Notes: a model not told the origin generated them from the letters alone. Counted from the first letter of the stretch, positions 48,349 to 51,635 are shown. The stretch: 64,000 bases of DNA from Escherichia coli (GCF_003334315.1 NZ_QOWR01000001.1), one strand, 5' to 3'. Numbers and translations are program-made.

Positions 48349-49587
48349 TTACTCATTGGAAACCAGTCGTGGCGTGATAAACACCACTAACTCGCGTCGT
48401 TCATCTTCTTTTCCGTCATGACGAAATAATTGCCCGAACCAGGGAATGTCGCCAAGCAACGGTACGCTATCCTGACCCGATTTATTTTTACGGGTAAAAA
48501 TGCCGCCCAGCGCCAACGTTTCTCCGCTTTTGACCTCGACCTGCGTTTCGATCTCCTGCTTATCAATCGCCAGCACTTCGCCATCGGCCTGCTGTAGCAC
48601 CTGCCCCGGAACGTTCTGGCTGATGTGTAATTTCAGCCGGATGCGGCCTTTTTGTAACACCGTGGGCGTGACCTCCATCCCCAGGACGGCCTCTTTAAAT
48701 TCCACCGACGTCGCGCCACTTTCCCCGCTGGAAACCTGATATGGAATTTCGCTCCCCTGTTTAATGCTGGCAGGCTGAAGATGTGAGGCCAGCAGACGCG
48801 GACTGGCGATAATATCCAGCTGCTGTTTTTGTTCGAGCGCGGAAAGCTCAAGATCCAGCAAGCGTCCGTTGATGCGCCCAATGTTAAAACCGACATGCGT
48901 TGTCGCCGTCGCTACGGAGAGGTCGCTACCAAGCGTGGTGACTTGCCCAACGCCACCAGCGTGTTGCGCATCGGCCAGCGTCCATTTCACGCCTAACTCA
49001 CGCAAACTTTTTTCATTAATGGTGACAATATGCGCCGACAGCTCAACCTGCCCGACCGGTAGATCCATTTGCGCTACCCACTGTTCAAGCGCGCTTAACG
49101 CCGTTTTGTTATCTCGTAGCAAAAGGCGATTGGTGCGTTTATCGACGGTCATACTCCCTTTGGCACTCAGTAGCTTCTCCCCCGCTTTCGCCAGTTCTCC
49201 CGCGTCGGCGTATTGCAGGGTTATACTGCGATTTTCCAGCGGCAGATTTGCCTGCGCCCGCGCCTGCTCCGCCTCCTGGCGGGCGATATTGTTATTCTGC
49301 CAGGCAATGGAATGCACTGAGAGAATGTTGCCTTCCTGCCGCGTTATCAGTCCGGCGCTTTTCACTACAGTTTGTAGTGCCTGCTTCCAGGGAACATCTG
49401 TTAGATGTAACGACACCGTACCGCTGACGTCTGGCGACACGACCAGGTTCAACTTCTCCTGTTCAGCCAGCGCCTGCAACACCTGAGCTACCGGAACGTC
49501 ATCCACCATCAGCGTCACTTTTTGCGGCTTTGCCGCCTGTACGCCGGGTATCAGCATCAACAGTAGTGCGGCTATCCATTGCTTCAT
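48349..49587 (-). CDS. hofQ: Secretin-family outer membrane protein
   Basis: 412-aa ORF with signal peptide; last gene of hofMNOPQ. Confidence 0.85.
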   Translation of the reverse strand: MKQWIAALLLMLIPGVQAAKPQKVTLMVDDVPVAQVLQALAEQEKLNLVVSPDVSGTVSLHLTDVPWKQALQTVVKSAGLITRQEGNILSVHSIAWQNNNIARQEAEQARAQANLPLENRSITLQYADAGELAKAGEKLLSAKGSMTVDKRTNRLLLRDNKTALSALEQWVAQMDLPVGQVELSAHIVTINEKSLRELGVKWTLADAQHAGGVGQVTTLGSDLSVATATTHVGFNIGRINGRLLDLELSALEQKQQLDIIASPRLLASHLQPASIKQGSEIPYQVSSGESGATSVEFKEAVLGMEVTPTVLQKGRIRLKLHISQNVPGQVLQQADGEVLAIDKQEIETQVEVKSGETLALGGIFTRKNKSGQDSVPLLGDIPWFGQLFRHDGKEDERRELVVFITPRLVSNE

Positions 49588-49903
49588 TTGTATCTCCTTG
49601 CCGTTGCCACAACCATTGTGGCGGTTCGCAGTTTGTCCCGGTACCCAGCGTTAGTACGTCTGGCGTCAGCTGTAAAATTGTCCAGCCGTTTTCCAGCACA
49701 TCGTTTTGCTGCACCCGTCGCCATTTCTTTTGCCCGTCTTTTATTACACCGATGATGCGCTCGCCTCGCCCTACCATCCCCTGATAGCGCCACTGGCTAA
49801 GTTCGCTAATCCGGCATAGATCTTCCGGCGGTTTAAAAGGGTCACGCATACCGGTTAAAAGGCACAATGCAATACCTGCCAACAACCAGCGTTTAACCCT
49901 CAT
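49499..49903 (-). CDS. hofP: Pilus/DNA-uptake assembly protein HofP
   Basis: Track ORF starts at 49942; ATG at 49901-49903 gives 134 aa; overlaps hofQ start by 89 nt in another frame. Confidence 0.65.
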   Translation of the reverse strand: MRVKRWLLAGIALCLLTGMRDPFKPPEDLCRISELSQWRYQGMVGRGERIIGVIKDGQKKWRRVQQNDVLENGWTILQLTPDVLTLGTGTNCEPPQWLWQRQGDTNEAMDSRTTVDADTRRTGGKAAKSDADGG

Positions 49904-50333
49904 GCGGCGTCTCCAGTTGTAGCGTGAACAAAAGATCATCACCTTCCACGCTTAACGAAAAACGGCTCACGCTGACGTTGCGCTCTGCCAGCCGTGTAAA
50001 TGCCGACGGCACTGCTTCCCACAGCGTTTTCAACGCCAACTCGCCTCCCTGCGCGGATGGATGCCAGGAAACCAGTTGCGCGCCGGATAACTGAAAATCC
50101 AGTGGCGAAAAGGGCAGCGTTTTTTCCTCGCTGAAGGGAGTGGTGTCTACCAGGCGATACAGTGCGGCCCACTGCTGGTGATGACTTGCCCGTAGTCGAA
50201 TTAATGCGTCGCGCTCTTCATGGTGTGTCGATGACAGAAAAATGAGCGTAACTAACATCAGCAACCAGAATGCCCAGCAAAGCTGGCGGAGGCGGGGTGA
50301 TGTGGCGAACCACCAGTCAAAGAACATGTTCAT
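49893..50333 (-). CDS. hofO: Pilus/DNA-uptake assembly protein HofO
   Basis: 146-aa ORF with N-terminal TM segment. Confidence 0.7.
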   Translation of the reverse strand: MNMFFDWWFATSPRLRQLCWAFWLLMLVTLIFLSSTHHEERDALIRLRASHHQQWAALYRLVDTTPFSEEKTLPFSPLDFQLSGAQLVSWHPSAQGGELALKTLWEAVPSAFTRLAERNVSVSRFSLSVEGDDLLFTLQLETPHEG

Positions 50334-50856
50334 CGCTAACCTTCCTTGTTAACTGATACTCAAATTGCCAGCGTCCCTGCGCATCCTGCTGCGTGGCTCC
50401 CCGCTGATTGAGATGAAAAGATGCATCCTGGCGGAGTGACGTTTCTAGTGCGTTTAACGCGGTAATGCTTGTTGTCAGCCCCTTGATCTCCAGCGTTCCC
50501 TGCTGCCAGCTTATCGTTGTCAGCCAGGCGTGCTCGGGTAAAAGCGCCGCCAGTGCTTCCAGCGCAGATTGCCAGTCGCGGGTAAATTGTCGCTGGCGCT
50601 GCCGTTGCGAACGCTGTTCGCGTAACTGCTGTTGCTCCAGCAAACGTGGCTTCGTTATCTGTAAGCTGCGGGCGAGTTGTTGTTCCGCCTGAAGCAAAAC
50701 TGCGTCTATGCGCGCTTCGGCGCTGCCTGTCAGACGCAGTATTAGCGTTATCCCGACGGCCAGCAGCAGAGGCGCAACGAACATCAGCAACCAGAAACGC
50801 AGAAAAGCGGTCCGGCGTTGCTGTCGCCAGGGCAAAAAATTAATTGGCGGGTTCAT
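50317..50856 (-). CDS. hofN: Pilus/DNA-uptake assembly protein HofN (PilN-like)
   Basis: 179-aa ORF with TM segment; 17-nt overlap with hofO. Confidence 0.7.
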   Translation of the reverse strand: MNPPINFLPWRQQRRTAFLRFWLLMFVAPLLLAVGITLILRLTGSAEARIDAVLLQAEQQLARSLQITKPRLLEQQQLREQRSQRQRQRQFTRDWQSALEALAALLPEHAWLTTISWQQGTLEIKGLTTSITALNALETSLRQDASFHLNQRGATQQDAQGRWQFEYQLTRKVSDEHVL

Positions 50857-51635
50857 CAGTACGCCTTCCCAAGCGCCAGCCCCAGCGCGATGGCAAAGTC
50901 TCCACCTGGCGGCGGTAGCGGCGGCTGACGAACAGAAACGGCCTCCCAGGGATCAAATCCGCCTTCGCCACATATCGCGACGCTTTCGGGATCAACGGAT
51001 AACGCTGCCGCCAGCTCCTTCGCGCTAGTCATCCCCACCGCCAGTTTGCGCCCCCAGCTATAGCGCGTCGCCCACAGCCACTGTTCGTTATCACGCCAGG
51101 CCAGACATTGCTGATGAGAAGGTAAAAAAGGCAGGAATCGCTGTAATGCACTGGCATCCGGGGTGATCGCGCTCACATGAACACGCAACCTTTCTGCCAG
51201 AGTAAGCAGCGTTGCCAGCTCTTTGCTTTGCGCGGCAGTCACGTTATAGGCGGGACTGAGTGAGTCTTCGCTGTAATCGAAGCGCAGGGAGTCCGGATCC
51301 ATATCCAGCTCGCGGGCCATCGTCCCTGACAGCCAGGCCGTTTGCTCCCGCTCACCAAGGGACATCGACGGGCGCGGAAATGACCGCTGTAATGTGCGAC
51401 TGGCGGGAAACGCCAACATAATGTGATGACGCTGCGGCAGTTCGCGACTCCACGGTAACAACGTTTTAGCCAGCTGCTGCGCATCAACAATCCGCCCATC
51501 TTTGATAATGTCGTTCTCCAGCGGCAACCGCCACCAGCGTTGCAAAAAGCATTCTTTTGCGCCCCGCACGATCGCAACCGCTACCGCTTCTTGCTGTTGT
51601 AAATGCAAACCAATTTGCCAGATCTTAAATGCCAT
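50856..51635 (-). CDS. hofM: Pilus/DNA-uptake assembly protein HofM (PilM-like)
   Basis: Track ORF starts at 51662; ATG at 51633-51635 gives 259 aa starting MAFKIWQIGL. Confidence 0.75.
   Translation of the reverse strand: MAFKIWQIGLHLQQQEAVAVAIVRGAKECFLQRWWRLPLENDIIKDGRIVDAQQLAKTLLPWSRELPQRHHIMLAFPASRTLQRSFPRPSMSLGEREQTAWLSGTMARELDMDPDSLRFDYSEDSLSPAYNVTAAQSKELATLLTLAERLRVHVSAITPDASALQRFLPFLPSHQQCLAWRDNEQWLWATRYSWGRKLAVGMTSAKELAAALSVDPESVAICGEGGFDPWEAVSVRQPPLPPPGGDFAIALGLALGKAY

What the first reader, a model, noticed from the sequence alone, without database searches (positions are those of the whole stretch)
48349..51635. hofMNOPQ: tightly overlapping type IV pilus / DNA-uptake-like operon
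Five minus-strand genes overlap heavily (hofM/hofN 1 nt, hofN/hofO 17 nt, hofO/hofP 11 nt, hofP/hofQ 89 nt) and end in a secretin. Extensive out-of-frame overlap implies translational coupling and constrains evolution in two frames at once. The hofP start is ambiguous, with in-frame candidates at 49942 and 49903. In laboratory E. coli the operon is largely cryptic, so its state in this strain is worth checking.
Basis: partly seen in the sequence, partly recalled or inferred. Interest (0 to 1): 0.35.

Follow-up and report, generated by a model that had tools for sequence, protein, structure and literature searches.

The report
Known E. coli hofMNOPQ DNA-uptake operon
This is the well-known, intact hofMNOPQ operon of E. 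coli, which encodes the envelope-spanning part of a type IV pilus/DNA-uptake machine; its unusual 89-base gene overlap is real and conserved, but it looks like a harmless by-product and not a special device.

Summary
Five intact minus-strand genes sit at exactly the stated coordinates: hofM 50856-51635, hofN 50317-50856, hofO 49893-50333, hofP 49499-49903 and hofQ 48349-49587. They overlap by 1, 17, 11 and 89 nt. These are the RefSeq gene models, and the locus is present in all 5426 complete E. coli genomes searched.

It is the annotated, experimentally studied hofMNOPQ (yrfDCBA-hofQ) operon, homologous to PilMNOPQ/ComABCDE and induced by Sxy plus CRP.

New detail from 78 Enterobacteriaceae loci:
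- The overlaps are conserved: 11 nt in 64/78 and at least 59 nt for hofP/hofQ in 73/78.
- The hofP start is the ATG at 49903. It is conserved, and an in-frame stop blocks the longer form in 44/75 loci.
- HofP's conserved PilP-like core ends where hofQ begins.
- The 31-residue tail encoded in the overlap is poorly conserved, predicted disordered and shortened in some genera, and it evolves as dictated by the hofQ frame.
- The hofP stop is a TGA inside hofQ's conserved Asp-Asp codons.
- hofQ has its own strong ribosome-binding site, so classic coupling is plausible only for hofN, hofO and hofP.
- dN/dS of 0.02-0.24 shows that all five genes are maintained by selection.

The finding is ordinary and of low interest.

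The parts
50856..51635 (-). hofM (259 aa), a short PilM/ComA-like cytoplasmic component. The ATG at 51635 is preceded by AGGAG with a 9-nt spacer.
   Evidence: ORF. The gene model is identical to RefSeq. The sequence evidence for PilM is weak: TIGR01175 scores 16 bits against a cutoff of 133, Pfam PilM_2 gives 0.047 and T2SSL 0.0024, and the profile's best PDB hit is M. xanthus PilM at E 0.0028. The start is ATG in 73/75 loci, and a strong SD is present in 91% of loci.
50317..50856 (-). hofN (179 aa), PilN-like bitopic inner-membrane protein. Its start overlaps the hofM stop (TGATG).
   Evidence: Pfam PilN PF05137 at 3.1e-9. The profile matches PilN of 3jc8 at 1.2e-7. N6, P9, W10 and R11 are invariant in the N-terminal 'INFLPWR'; I take this, from memory, to match the PilM-binding INLLP motif of PilN. 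The M/N overlap is 1 or 4 nt in 59/78 loci.
49893..50333 (-). hofO (146 aa), PilO/GspM-like: a membrane helix, a long coiled coil and a C-terminal ferredoxin-like domain. It overlaps hofN by 17 nt.
   Evidence: Pfam HofO PF25319 at 2.2e-25. There is no sequence hit in the PDB. The AF2 model has pLDDT 87. The best fold matches are PulM, PilO and EpsM at E 0.06-0.2. The 17-nt overlap is found in 45/78 loci.
49499..49903 (-). hofP (134 aa), PilP-like periplasmic beta-sandwich protein. The ATG at 49903 follows GGAG with a 7-nt spacer. It overlaps hofO by 11 nt.
   Evidence: Pfam HofP PF10748 at 5.3e-80. The profile matches PilP of 3jc8 at 0.0013. The AF2 core (residues 32-101) has pLDDT 85-93. The top Foldseek PDB hits are PilP from three species and the GspC HR domain. 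The 11-nt overlap is found in 64/78 loci. Start conservation is shown.
49499..49587 (-). The hofP/hofQ overlap (89 nt). It encodes the HofP tail (residues about 106-134) in one frame and the HofQ signal peptide plus the first mature residues (codons 1-30) in the other. The hofP stop TGA (49501-49499) lies inside hofQ codons D29-D30 (GAT GAC).
   Evidence: Sequence. The tail is poorly conserved and ranges from 105 to 151 aa total protein length. Its pLDDT is below 50. The stop lies in 'GAT GAN' in 54/75 loci, and GAC variants extend the overlap to 122-140 nt. Synonymous observed/expected is 0.87. dN exceeds dS in the hofP frame.
48349..49587 (-). hofQ (412 aa), outer-membrane secretin of the PilQ/ComE type, with signal peptide MKQWIAALLLMLIPGVQA.
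   Evidence: NF007851 'DNA uptake porin HofQ' scores 855 bits (cutoff 598) and TIGR02515 PilQ scores 449 bits (cutoff 284). PDB hits are V. cholerae PilQ 6w6m at 2e-74 and A. actinomycetemcomitans HofQ 2y3m at 1e-11. The protein is 67-98% identical across Enterobacteriaceae.
49594..49598 (-). Shine-Dalgarno AGGAG of hofQ, 6 nt upstream of its ATG and inside hofP codons G103-D104.
   Evidence: Sequence. An SD of at least 5 nt is present in 77% of 78 loci and of at least 4 nt in 99%. The region is not structured: z = -0.07, with the SD and AUG unpaired in the MFE fold.
51786..51911 (-). Published CRP-binding promoter fragment of yrfD (= hofM). It lies inside the 5' coding region of the divergent mrcA gene.
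   Evidence: The EMSA primers from PMC1635313 map to 51892-51911 and 51786-51807. The paper reports two CRP-S sites at the ends of this fragment and 16-fold induction that depends on Sxy and CRP.
51882..51903 (-). Candidate distal CRP-S site. The core on the minus strand is TGCAT-CGGAAT-TTGCA, with C6 and G17.
   Evidence: It has 3 mismatches to TGYGA-N6-TCRCA. Its 3' end is 247 nt upstream of the hofM ATG, matching the published 'E.c. -246' site.
51801..51822 (.). Candidate proximal CRP-S site. The core on the plus strand is TGGGA-GCAGGC-TCGAT, with G6 and G17.
   Evidence: It has 3 mismatches and lies at the other end of the EMSA fragment, as the paper describes. This is inferred only; a pattern this loose is not above chance.

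Best explanation
The region is the chromosomal hofMNOPQ (formerly yrfD-yrfC-yrfB-yrfA-hofQ) operon of E. coli, intact and essentially identical to that of K-12.

What the proteins are. The operon encodes the envelope-spanning 'alignment' subcomplex and secretin of a type IVa pilus-like machine. HofM is a short cytoplasmic PilM-like protein. HofN and HofO are PilN- and PilO/GspM-like bitopic inner-membrane proteins. HofP is a periplasmic protein with the PilP fold that is expected to dock on the N0 domain of the secretin. HofQ is the PilQ-type outer-membrane secretin through which the PpdD pilus or DNA passes.

Transcription. According to the literature, transcription starts upstream of hofM, inside the divergent mrcA coding region, from a weak promoter that needs cAMP-CRP bound to CRP-S sites together with Sxy/TfoX. 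This is why the operon is nearly silent in laboratory culture.

Translation (inferred). hofM and hofQ are initiated independently from strong Shine-Dalgarno sites. hofN, hofO and hofP have weak sites and conserved overlaps of 1-17 nt, so they are probably coupled to the gene upstream.

The 89-nt overlap (inferred). This overlap is a passive consequence of gene packing. HofP's functional core ends at about residue 103, just where the hofQ ribosome-binding site and ATG lie. Ribosomes then read on through the hofQ signal-peptide region, which is Leu/Ala-rich and rarely yields stops in that frame. They stop at a TGA created by hofQ's conserved Asp-Asp codons. The result is a disordered, dispensable tail.

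Selection:
- dN/dS within Escherichia is hofM 0.10-0.12, hofN 0.12-0.17, hofO 0.16-0.24, hofP core 0.09-0.24 and hofQ 0.02-0.04.

Passive tail:
- The alignment shows conservation ending at W-x-R-x-G103, followed by a variable tail that is truncated to a 38-nt overlap in Phytobacter/Kosakonia and to 4 nt in a Leclercia MAG.
- The tail has pLDDT 37-43.
- The stop is embedded in 'GAT GAN' of HofQ D29-D30 in 54/75 loci, and GAC variants give 122-140-nt overlaps.
- The probability of an open frame given the HofQ protein sequence is 0.89 here and 0.63 on average.
- In the overlap, dN exceeds dS in the hofP frame while the hofQ frame shows dN below dS.

Translation:
- The hofQ initiation region is unstructured.

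Regulation and function from papers:
- PMC1635313 reports CRP EMSA and 16-fold Sxy- and CRP-dependent induction of yrfD.
- PMC3330819 reports that Sxy-dependent DNA uptake is lost in a hofQ mutant.
- PMC2649431 reports that hofQ contributes to kidney colonisation by UPEC.
- 10.1101/856302 reports that hofMNOPQ was included in a plasmid-borne gene set used to produce PpdD pili.
Against: - HofM and HofO are only weakly similar to PilM and PilO by sequence, and HofO's fold matches do not reach significance.
- HofP lacks the conserved lipobox cysteine of PilP.
- An overlap of at least 77 nt is kept in 68/78 loci, somewhat more than the 63% expected passively. hofQ synonymous variation in codons 1-29 is slightly reduced (observed/expected 0.87, 13th lowest of 384 windows). 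A weak constraint on the tail or on the frame being open is therefore not excluded, although 5' ends of genes commonly show this for reasons of initiation.
- No expression, ribosome-profiling or proteomic data were available to me, so coupling and start-site use are inferred.
- The exact CRP-S sequences and the transcription start were not re-derived.
Confidence: 0.88

Rival explanations
1. The 89-nt hofP/hofQ overlap is actively maintained. On this reading the HofP C-terminal tail has a function (for example contacting HofQ or peptidoglycan), or hofP ribosomes crossing the hofQ start set the HofP:HofQ ratio, so both frames are under selection.
For: The overlap is exactly 89 nt in 37/78 loci and at least 59 nt in 73/78, even though HofP is only about 40% identical across these genera. 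The observed share of long overlaps exceeds the 63% passive expectation, and hofQ synonymous variation in codons 1-29 is 0.87 of expectation. G123 and a C-terminal 'AGG' are fairly common in the tail.
Against: The residues recurring in the tail map onto constrained hofQ codons (MKQW, and the Ala-x-Ala cleavage region). The tail varies from absent to 48 residues. It is predicted disordered. dN exceeds dS in its own frame. The position of the stop is explained by HofQ's conserved Asp-Asp codons. The synonymous constraint is concentrated in codons 1-10 and 21-29 and is absent in codons 11-20, as expected from initiation signals and the conserved N0 motif.
Confidence: 0.12
2. HofP is made from the upstream GTG at 49942 (or the ATG at 49939) as a 146-147-aa protein. 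The overlap with hofO would then be 50 nt.
For: Both codons are in frame and the ORF is open. The pair is conserved within the genus Escherichia (L003-L007).
Against: In 44/75 Enterobacteriaceae loci a stop codon lies between that position and the conserved ATG, and outside Escherichia there is no start codon at -13. The GTG has GGAAG directly abutting it with no spacer, whereas the ATG at 49903 has GGAG 7 nt upstream. The extension would put 13 extra residues in front of the hydrophobic signal/anchor helix. Both the Pfam HofP model and RefSeq start at the short form.
Confidence: 0.04
3. The operon is a decaying relic, meaning cryptic in the sense of non-functional. On this reading the odd overlaps and fast-evolving HofM-HofP proteins reflect relaxed selection.
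For: HofN, HofO and HofP are only 45-60% identical between E. coli and Citrobacter/Salmonella, against 83-86% for HofQ. Disruptions occur sporadically. hofM carries a 1-nt deletion in 288 O157-like genomes. hofP is frameshifted in ST95-32. hofQ is deleted in CNR20180903. hofO and hofP are broken in the E. albertii type strain, and several genes are broken in C. koseri NCTC10786.
Against: dN/dS is 0.02-0.24 for all five genes. The ORFs are intact, with conserved starts and overlaps, in about 70 of 78 genera or species. The locus is present in every complete E. coli genome. Published phenotypes exist for hofQ and for Sxy induction (PMC3330819, PMC1635313, PMC2649431).
Confidence: 0.03
4. The long overlap is an annotation artefact, with hofQ really starting further downstream.
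For: Very long same-strand overlaps in bacterial annotations are often start-site mispredictions (general knowledge).
Against: The ATG at 49587 is conserved in position (70 ATG and 5 GTG in 75 loci). It is preceded by a strong SD and followed by a canonical signal peptide, which an outer-membrane secretin requires. The next in-frame Met (M27) would remove that signal peptide. The NCBIfam HofQ model aligns from residue 1.
Confidence: 0.01

Closest known systems
E. coli K-12 hofMNOPQ (yrfD-yrfC-yrfB-yrfA-hofQ; b3395-b3391)
   Same: The gene models are identical. HofM, HofN and HofP have the same protein accessions as MG1655. The five genes plus the upstream spacer (3382 bases) are 99.9% identical in DNA.
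   Different: HofO and HofQ carry different RefSeq protein accessions from MG1655, so each differs by at least one residue; I did not enumerate the substitutions. The closest genome found is strain CP53, with 1 mismatch in the operon.
Haemophilus influenzae comABCDE(F) competence operon
   Same: It has the same five-gene order and roles (ComA-E = HofM-Q) and the same control by CRP-S sites plus Sxy, and it is required for DNA uptake (PMC1635313).
   Different: It has a single CRP-S site against two predicted in Enterobacteriaceae, and comF has joined the operon in H. influenzae (PMC1635313). H. influenzae is naturally competent, whereas E. coli needs artificial Sxy expression (PMC3330819). The sequences were not compared here.
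PilMNOPQ of type IVa pili (Pseudomonas aeruginosa, Myxococcus xanthus, Neisseria, Thermus)
   Same: The gene order is the same. HofQ is homologous to the PilQ secretin core and N0/N1 domains. HofN carries the PilN domain. HofP has the PilP beta-sandwich fold. HofM's best PDB hit is PilM. HofO has a PilO/GspM-like architecture.
   Different: HofQ (412 aa) lacks the long N-terminal AMIN/B-domain region of the 700-900-aa PilQ proteins (compare the chain lengths). HofM is 259 aa against 377-395 aa and scores far below the PilM family cutoff. HofP has no conserved lipobox cysteine. HofO has no detectable sequence similarity to PilO.
Type II secretion GspC/GspL/GspM/GspD assembly platform
   Same: HofP's fold also matches the GspC HR domain, which binds the secretin N0 domain (3oss, TM 0.73 on the target). 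The HofO C-terminal domain matches PulM, EpsM and XcpY. HofM has a weak hit to the cytoplasmic domain of T2SS protein L. HofQ matches GspD at 1e-25.
   Different: HofQ scores well below the GspD family cutoff (195 against 351 bits) and above the PilQ cutoff. The gene order and the published partners (PpdD pilin, HofB/HofC) are those of a type IV pilus.

Membership tests
HofMNOPQ / ComABCDE / PilMNOPQ operon (type IVa pilus alignment subcomplex plus secretin) | Five co-directional genes in the order M-N-O-P-Q, ending in a secretin | tested here: met
   ORFs; annotation; the same order in 78 Enterobacteriaceae loci.
HofMNOPQ / ComABCDE / PilMNOPQ operon | Q is a PilQ-type secretin with a signal peptide, N0/N1 domains and a secretin core | tested here: met
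   NF007851 HofQ scores 855 bits (cutoff 598) and TIGR02515 PilQ scores 449 bits (cutoff 284). PDB V. cholerae PilQ at 2e-74 covers residues 23-409. The N-terminal signal peptide is read directly from the sequence.
HofMNOPQ / ComABCDE / PilMNOPQ operon | N is a PilN-family bitopic protein with the conserved N-terminal PilM-binding motif | tested here: met
   Pfam PF05137 at 3.1e-9. The profile matches PilN of 3jc8 at 1.2e-7 over residues 1-144. N6, P9, W10 and R11 are invariant in 'INFLPWR'. The equivalence to the INLLP motif is from memory and was not tested.
HofMNOPQ / ComABCDE / PilMNOPQ operon | M is a PilM-family actin-like cytoplasmic protein | tested here: inconclusive
   TIGR01175 scores 16 bits against a cutoff of 133. 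Pfam PilM_2 gives 0.047. The best PDB profile hit is PilM, but only at E 0.0028, and 2ych PilM is at 0.29. HofM is about 100-130 residues shorter.
HofMNOPQ / ComABCDE / PilMNOPQ operon | O is a PilO/GspM-like protein with a membrane helix, a coiled coil and a ferredoxin-like periplasmic domain | tested here: inconclusive
   The architecture is predicted with pLDDT 87. The top fold hits are PulM, PilO 2rjz and EpsM, but at E 0.06-0.2 with target TM-scores of 0.3-0.6. There is no sequence hit. Only the dedicated HofO Pfam family matches.
PilP family | C-terminal beta-sandwich (PilP/GspC-HR) fold | tested here: met
   The AF2 core has pLDDT 85-93. The top Foldseek PDB hits are PilP of M. xanthus (4.5e-4), N. 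meningitidis and P. aeruginosa, plus the GspC HR domain, each with probability 1.00. The profile hit to PilP is at 0.0013.
PilP family | Inner-membrane lipoprotein (lipobox with an invariant Cys after the signal peptide) | tested here: not met
   No Cys is conserved in the N-terminal 25 residues. E. coli C14 aligns with Leu in most genera, and the invariant cysteines are C30 and C92 in the core. HofP therefore works like PilP but is probably anchored or released differently (inference).
CRP-S / Sxy competence regulon | CRP-S site(s) (TGCGA-N6-TCGCA-like, with C6/G17) upstream of the first gene, and dependence on Sxy and CRP | tested here: inconclusive
   No site with 2 or fewer mismatches lies upstream of hofM. 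Two 3-mismatch candidates lie at the ends of the published EMSA fragment, and one matches the published -246 position. Such loose matches are not above chance. The dependence on Sxy and CRP is taken from PMC1635313 and was not tested here.
DNA-uptake / DNA-utilisation function | Required for DNA uptake or for use of DNA as a nutrient | not testable with these tools
   Literature only. A hofQ mutant loses Sxy-dependent uptake (PMC3330819). The 'DNA utilization' names are those of RefSeq.

The most novel reading that the evidence does not exclude
The conserved read-through of hofP ribosomes across the hofQ ribosome-binding site and signal-peptide codons is a regulatory device. Either it tunes the HofP:HofQ stoichiometry by transient occlusion or unmasking of the hofQ start, or an occasional +1 shift within the overlap yields a HofP-HofQ fusion that nucleates secretin assembly. 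In either case the tail frame is kept open by selection and not by chance.
Probability: 0.04. Interest if true: 0.4.

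Novelty: already known. Interest (0 to 1): 0.1.

Why it matters
It matters little beyond tidying the annotation. The operon is a textbook-annotated, experimentally studied part of E. coli's latent competence/type IV pilus machinery.

Three by-products are useful:
1. Comparative evidence settles the hofP start at the 134-aa form.
2. The longest gene overlap in this 64-kb window is shown to be a passive read-through, whose stop is supplied by conserved Asp-Asp codons of the downstream gene. It is a clear example that a long, conserved overlap need not mean dual-frame function.
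3. All five genes remain under purifying selection. This supports the view that 'cryptic' competence genes are used under conditions not reproduced in the laboratory.

Tried and rejected
- CRP-S pattern search over the whole window with up to 2 mismatches: 36 hits against 49 expected, and none upstream of hofM. Only after mapping the published EMSA primers did I find 3-mismatch candidates. The paper's supplementary site table is not held.
- Rfam scan of 47000-53000 at E up to 1: only a chance-level hit to asponA (14.7 bits against a gathering score of 113).
- Promoter/terminator scan of 47900-52100: counts equal to shuffled expectation. The hairpin after hofQ (48345-48332) is weak, so I do not claim a terminator.
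- NCBIfam found no model for HofN, HofO or HofP.
- The HofO profile found nothing in the PDB by sequence.
- The raw synonymous-difference rate in hofQ codons 1-29 looked extreme (rank 2 of 384). I rejected this as biased, because identical residues in a variable region come mostly from close relatives. With pair-specific expectations it is a mild 0.87.
- I read the overlap sequence for a canonical slippery heptamer that could support a frameshift fusion. 'GCAAAAAGT' does not fit X XXY YYZ in either frame. This was by inspection only.
- The first attempt at the genome-contig scan failed because of a queue and was repeated. Two scripts failed because a locus file had not yet been synchronised. 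As a result I never listed the window-versus-MG1655 substitutions base by base.
- The identity of the proteins was already unambiguous.

Full report
**1. The observation**

Listing ORFs and reading the minus strand shows five uninterrupted genes:
- hofM, 50856-51635 (259 aa)
- hofN, 50317-50856 (179 aa)
- hofO, 49893-50333 (146 aa)
- hofP, 49499-49903 (134 aa; the ORF is open back to a GTG at 49942)
- hofQ, 48349-49587 (412 aa)

A megablast of 48349-51730 against all complete E. coli genomes found the locus in 5426 of 5426 genomes at 97-100% identity. The RefSeq annotations of strain CP53 (one mismatch in the operon) and K-12 MG1655 have exactly these gene boundaries and names. The flanking genes are mrcA (divergent, annotated start 51755) and aroK-aroB (downstream). 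No frameshift or premature stop is present.

**2. Is the overlap unusual, and is it more than chance?**

Across the annotated equivalent of the whole 64-kb window there are 16 overlapping co-directional gene pairs. Outside the hof operon the largest overlap is 11 nt. The 89-nt overlap is therefore a real outlier in length.

It is cheap to obtain, however. I kept each HofQ protein sequence fixed and redrew synonymous codons at random. The hofP frame then stays free of stops through the first 27 hofQ codons with probability 0.89 for this genome, and 0.63 on average over 67 genomes.

**3. What the proteins are**

- HofQ passes the curated NCBIfam cutoffs for 'DNA uptake porin HofQ' (855 bits) and for PilQ (449 bits). 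It falls below those for GspD and the type III secretins. Its best solved relative is Vibrio cholerae PilQ (2e-74).
- HofN has a PilN Pfam domain (3e-9). A 29-genus profile finds M. xanthus PilN at 1e-7.
- HofP belongs to Pfam HofP (5e-80). Its profile finds PilP as best hit (1.3e-3). An AlphaFold2 model has a confident beta-sandwich core (residues 32-101, pLDDT 85-93). The best PDB fold matches of that model are PilP from three species and the secretin-binding HR domain of GspC.
- HofO matches only its own Pfam family and nothing in the PDB by sequence. Its model (pLDDT 87) is a membrane helix, a long coiled coil and a ferredoxin-like domain. The top fold hits are PulM, PilO and EpsM, but none is significant.
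- HofM is the weakest case. PilM is the best hit in NCBIfam and in the PDB, and Pfam PilM_2 is a marginal second to T2SS-L. All scores are far below family thresholds, and the protein is about 100-130 residues shorter.
- HofP has no conserved lipobox cysteine, unlike PilP. Its two invariant cysteines (C30 and C92) lie in the core.

**4. Comparative anatomy**

A scan of one genome per species returned 80 Enterobacteriaceae loci. In 78 of them all five genes could be located.

The overlaps are strikingly conserved, even though HofM-HofP are only 30-55% identical across these genera while HofQ is 67-86% identical:

| Junction | Overlap | Loci |
|---|---|---|
| hofO/hofP | 11 nt | 64/78 |
| hofN/hofO | 17 nt | 45/78 |
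| hofM/hofN | 1 or 4 nt | 59/78 |
| hofP/hofQ | 89 nt | 37/78 |
| hofP/hofQ | at least 59 nt | 73/78 |

Within Escherichia, dN/dS for the non-overlapping parts is as follows:

| Gene | dN/dS |
|---|---|
| hofM | 0.10-0.12 |
| hofN | 0.12-0.17 |
| hofO | 0.16-0.24 |
| hofP | 0.09-0.24 |
| hofQ | 0.02-0.04 |

All five genes are therefore under purifying selection, with the secretin under much the strongest.

**5. The hofP start**

The ATG at 49903 aligns with a start codon in every intact locus (73 ATG and 2 GTG of 75). In 44 of 75 loci an in-frame stop lies fewer than 13 codons upstream, so the 147-aa form cannot exist there. The GTG at -13 is confined to the genus Escherichia. The ATG has GGAG 7 nt upstream, whereas the GTG has no spacer. 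Pfam's HofP model begins at residue 3 of the short form. I regard the start as settled at 49903, pending direct evidence.

**6. The 89-nt overlap**

The HofP alignment is well conserved up to W97-x-W99-x-R101-x-G103 and then degenerates into a hydrophilic, variable tail. Total protein length ranges from 105 to 151 aa. The hofQ Shine-Dalgarno AGGAG (49594-49598) is HofP codons G103-D104, and the hofQ ATG falls in HofP codons N106-E107. The HofP core therefore ends exactly where hofQ begins.

The evidence that the tail is a passenger of the hofQ frame:
- The tail is predicted disordered (pLDDT 37-43).
- The hofP stop (TGA, 49501-49499) lies inside hofQ codons D29-D30 (GAT GAC), the start of the conserved 'VDDVPV' motif of the N0 domain. 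The stop is in 'GAT GAN' in 54 of 75 loci.
- Where the first Asp is GAC, the frame runs on to overlaps of 122-140 nt. Where an earlier stop arose, in Phytobacter/Kosakonia and a Leclercia MAG, the overlap is 38 or 4 nt.
- In the overlap, the hofP frame shows dN of 0.08-0.12 against dS of 0.02-0.08, while the hofQ frame shows dN below dS.
- Synonymous variation of hofQ in codons 1-29, corrected for pair divergence, is 0.87 of expectation and the 13th lowest of 384 windows. The deficit lies in codons 1-10 and 21-29, not in codons 11-20. This pattern is expected from initiation signals and the conserved motif, not from a protein-coding constraint along the tail.

A weak selective component cannot be excluded, and I give it about 12%.

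**7. Translation**

Shine-Dalgarno matches of at least 5 nt are present upstream of hofM in 91% of loci and upstream of hofQ in 77%. For hofN, hofO and hofP the figures are only 28%, 38% and 24%. The hofQ initiation region is not more structured than shuffled sequence, and its SD and AUG are unpaired.

The inference is that hofM and hofQ initiate on their own, while hofN, hofO and hofP depend at least partly on coupling to the gene upstream. The hofP stop lies 86 nt beyond the hofQ start, so termination-reinitiation is implausible there.

**8. Regulation and function (from papers, not tested here)**

- Cameron and Redfield (PMC1635313) predicted two CRP-S sites in the yrfD (= hofM) promoter, showed weak specific CRP binding, and measured 16-fold induction that requires Sxy, CRP and cAMP. 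They note that the operon is otherwise transcribed poorly or undetectably.
- Their EMSA primers map to 51786-51911, inside the mrcA coding region. A 3-mismatch CRP-S-like core at 51885-51900 ends 247 nt upstream of the hofM ATG, matching their 'E.c. -246'. A second candidate lies at 51804-51819.
- Sinha and Redfield (PMC3330819) showed that Sxy-induced DNA uptake is lost in a hofQ mutant.
- hofQ contributes to kidney colonisation by UPEC (PMC2649431).
- hofMNOPQ was included in a plasmid-borne gene set used to make PpdD pili in E. coli (10.1101/856302).

**9. State in this strain and in the species**

Here all five genes are intact and nearly identical to those of K-12. Elsewhere I found these disruptions:
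- A 1-nt deletion in a G-run 9 codons before the hofM stop. RefSeq annotates it as a frameshift, and it is shared by 288 genomes that look like the O157:H7 lineage.
- A hofP frameshift in an A-run in ST95-32.
- A deletion removing hofQ in CNR20180903.
- Broken genes in the E. albertii type strain, in C. koseri NCTC10786 and in a few other assemblies.

**10. Verdict**

The finding is correct but ordinary. It is an already known operon, correctly annotated in public databases. The refinements made here are a settled hofP start, a passive origin of the long overlap, independent initiation of hofQ, and purifying selection on all five genes. None of these changes the picture. Interest is 0.1.

Noticed in passing
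L083 (E. coli O157:H7 Z1812), equivalent to window 50883: There is a 1-nt deletion in a GGGG run 9 codons before the hofM stop, annotated as a frameshifted pseudogene. The exact 74-nt context occurs in 288 of 5426 complete genomes, apparently the O157:H7 lineage. It changes the HofM C-terminus and lengthens the hofM/hofN overlap to 17 nt, without truncating the protein early.
   Followed up: partly
L084 (E. coli ST95-32), equivalent to window 49727: One base is missing from an A-run in hofP (GCAAAAGAAA becomes GCAAAAAAA), and the gene is annotated as frameshifted. This could be a sequencing error in a homopolymer, or it could be real.
   Followed up: no
L085 (E. coli CNR20180903): hofQ is cut off after about 49 codons and joined directly to a truncated barA, in a 4.28-Mb chromosome. 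This is a large deletion or rearrangement that removes the secretin and everything up to barA.
   Followed up: no
L006 (E. albertii NBRC 107761), L041 (Citrobacter koseri NCTC10786), L014, L029, L075: [quoted passage not shown] This could be lineage-specific decay or assembly errors; I did not distinguish between the two.
   Followed up: no
window 15003-15635 (+): crp, the gene for the cAMP receptor protein that activates hofMNOPQ together with Sxy, lies in the same window about 36 kb away. The translation reads [15 protein letters not shown]....
   Followed up: yes
window 51884-51909 (-): There is a weak Rfam hit to asponA ('anti ponA RNA', RF02812) at 14.7 bits against a gathering score of 113, E 0.47, which is at chance level. 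Separately, the published hofM promoter lies inside mrcA (= ponA), so the Sxy-induced hofM transcript would be antisense to the 5' end of mrcA.
   Followed up: partly
window 47949-48348 (-): The hofQ-aroK spacer is unusually long at 400 nt. It contains a sigma-70-like site (TTGCCA-18-GATAAT, 48087-48058), two weak hairpin-plus-T-run sites (48345-48332 and 48208-48190) and a mechanical 59-aa ORF (48143-48322). It is presumably the aroK promoter and leader region.
   Followed up: no
window 51731-51755 (+): The mrcA ORF is open from an ATG at 51731 (858 aa), but RefSeq starts it at 51755 (850 aa). The hofM-mrcA intergenic spacer is therefore either 95 or 119 nt.
   Followed up: no
summary: One of the 5429 matching places for the hof operon lies on a record labelled as a plasmid. 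I did not look at it.
   Followed up: no
HofP residues C30 and C92 (window about 49816-49814 and 49630-49628): Two cysteines are invariant across 29 genera in the periplasmic HofP core, which suggests a structural disulfide. I did not check this in the model coordinates.
   Followed up: no
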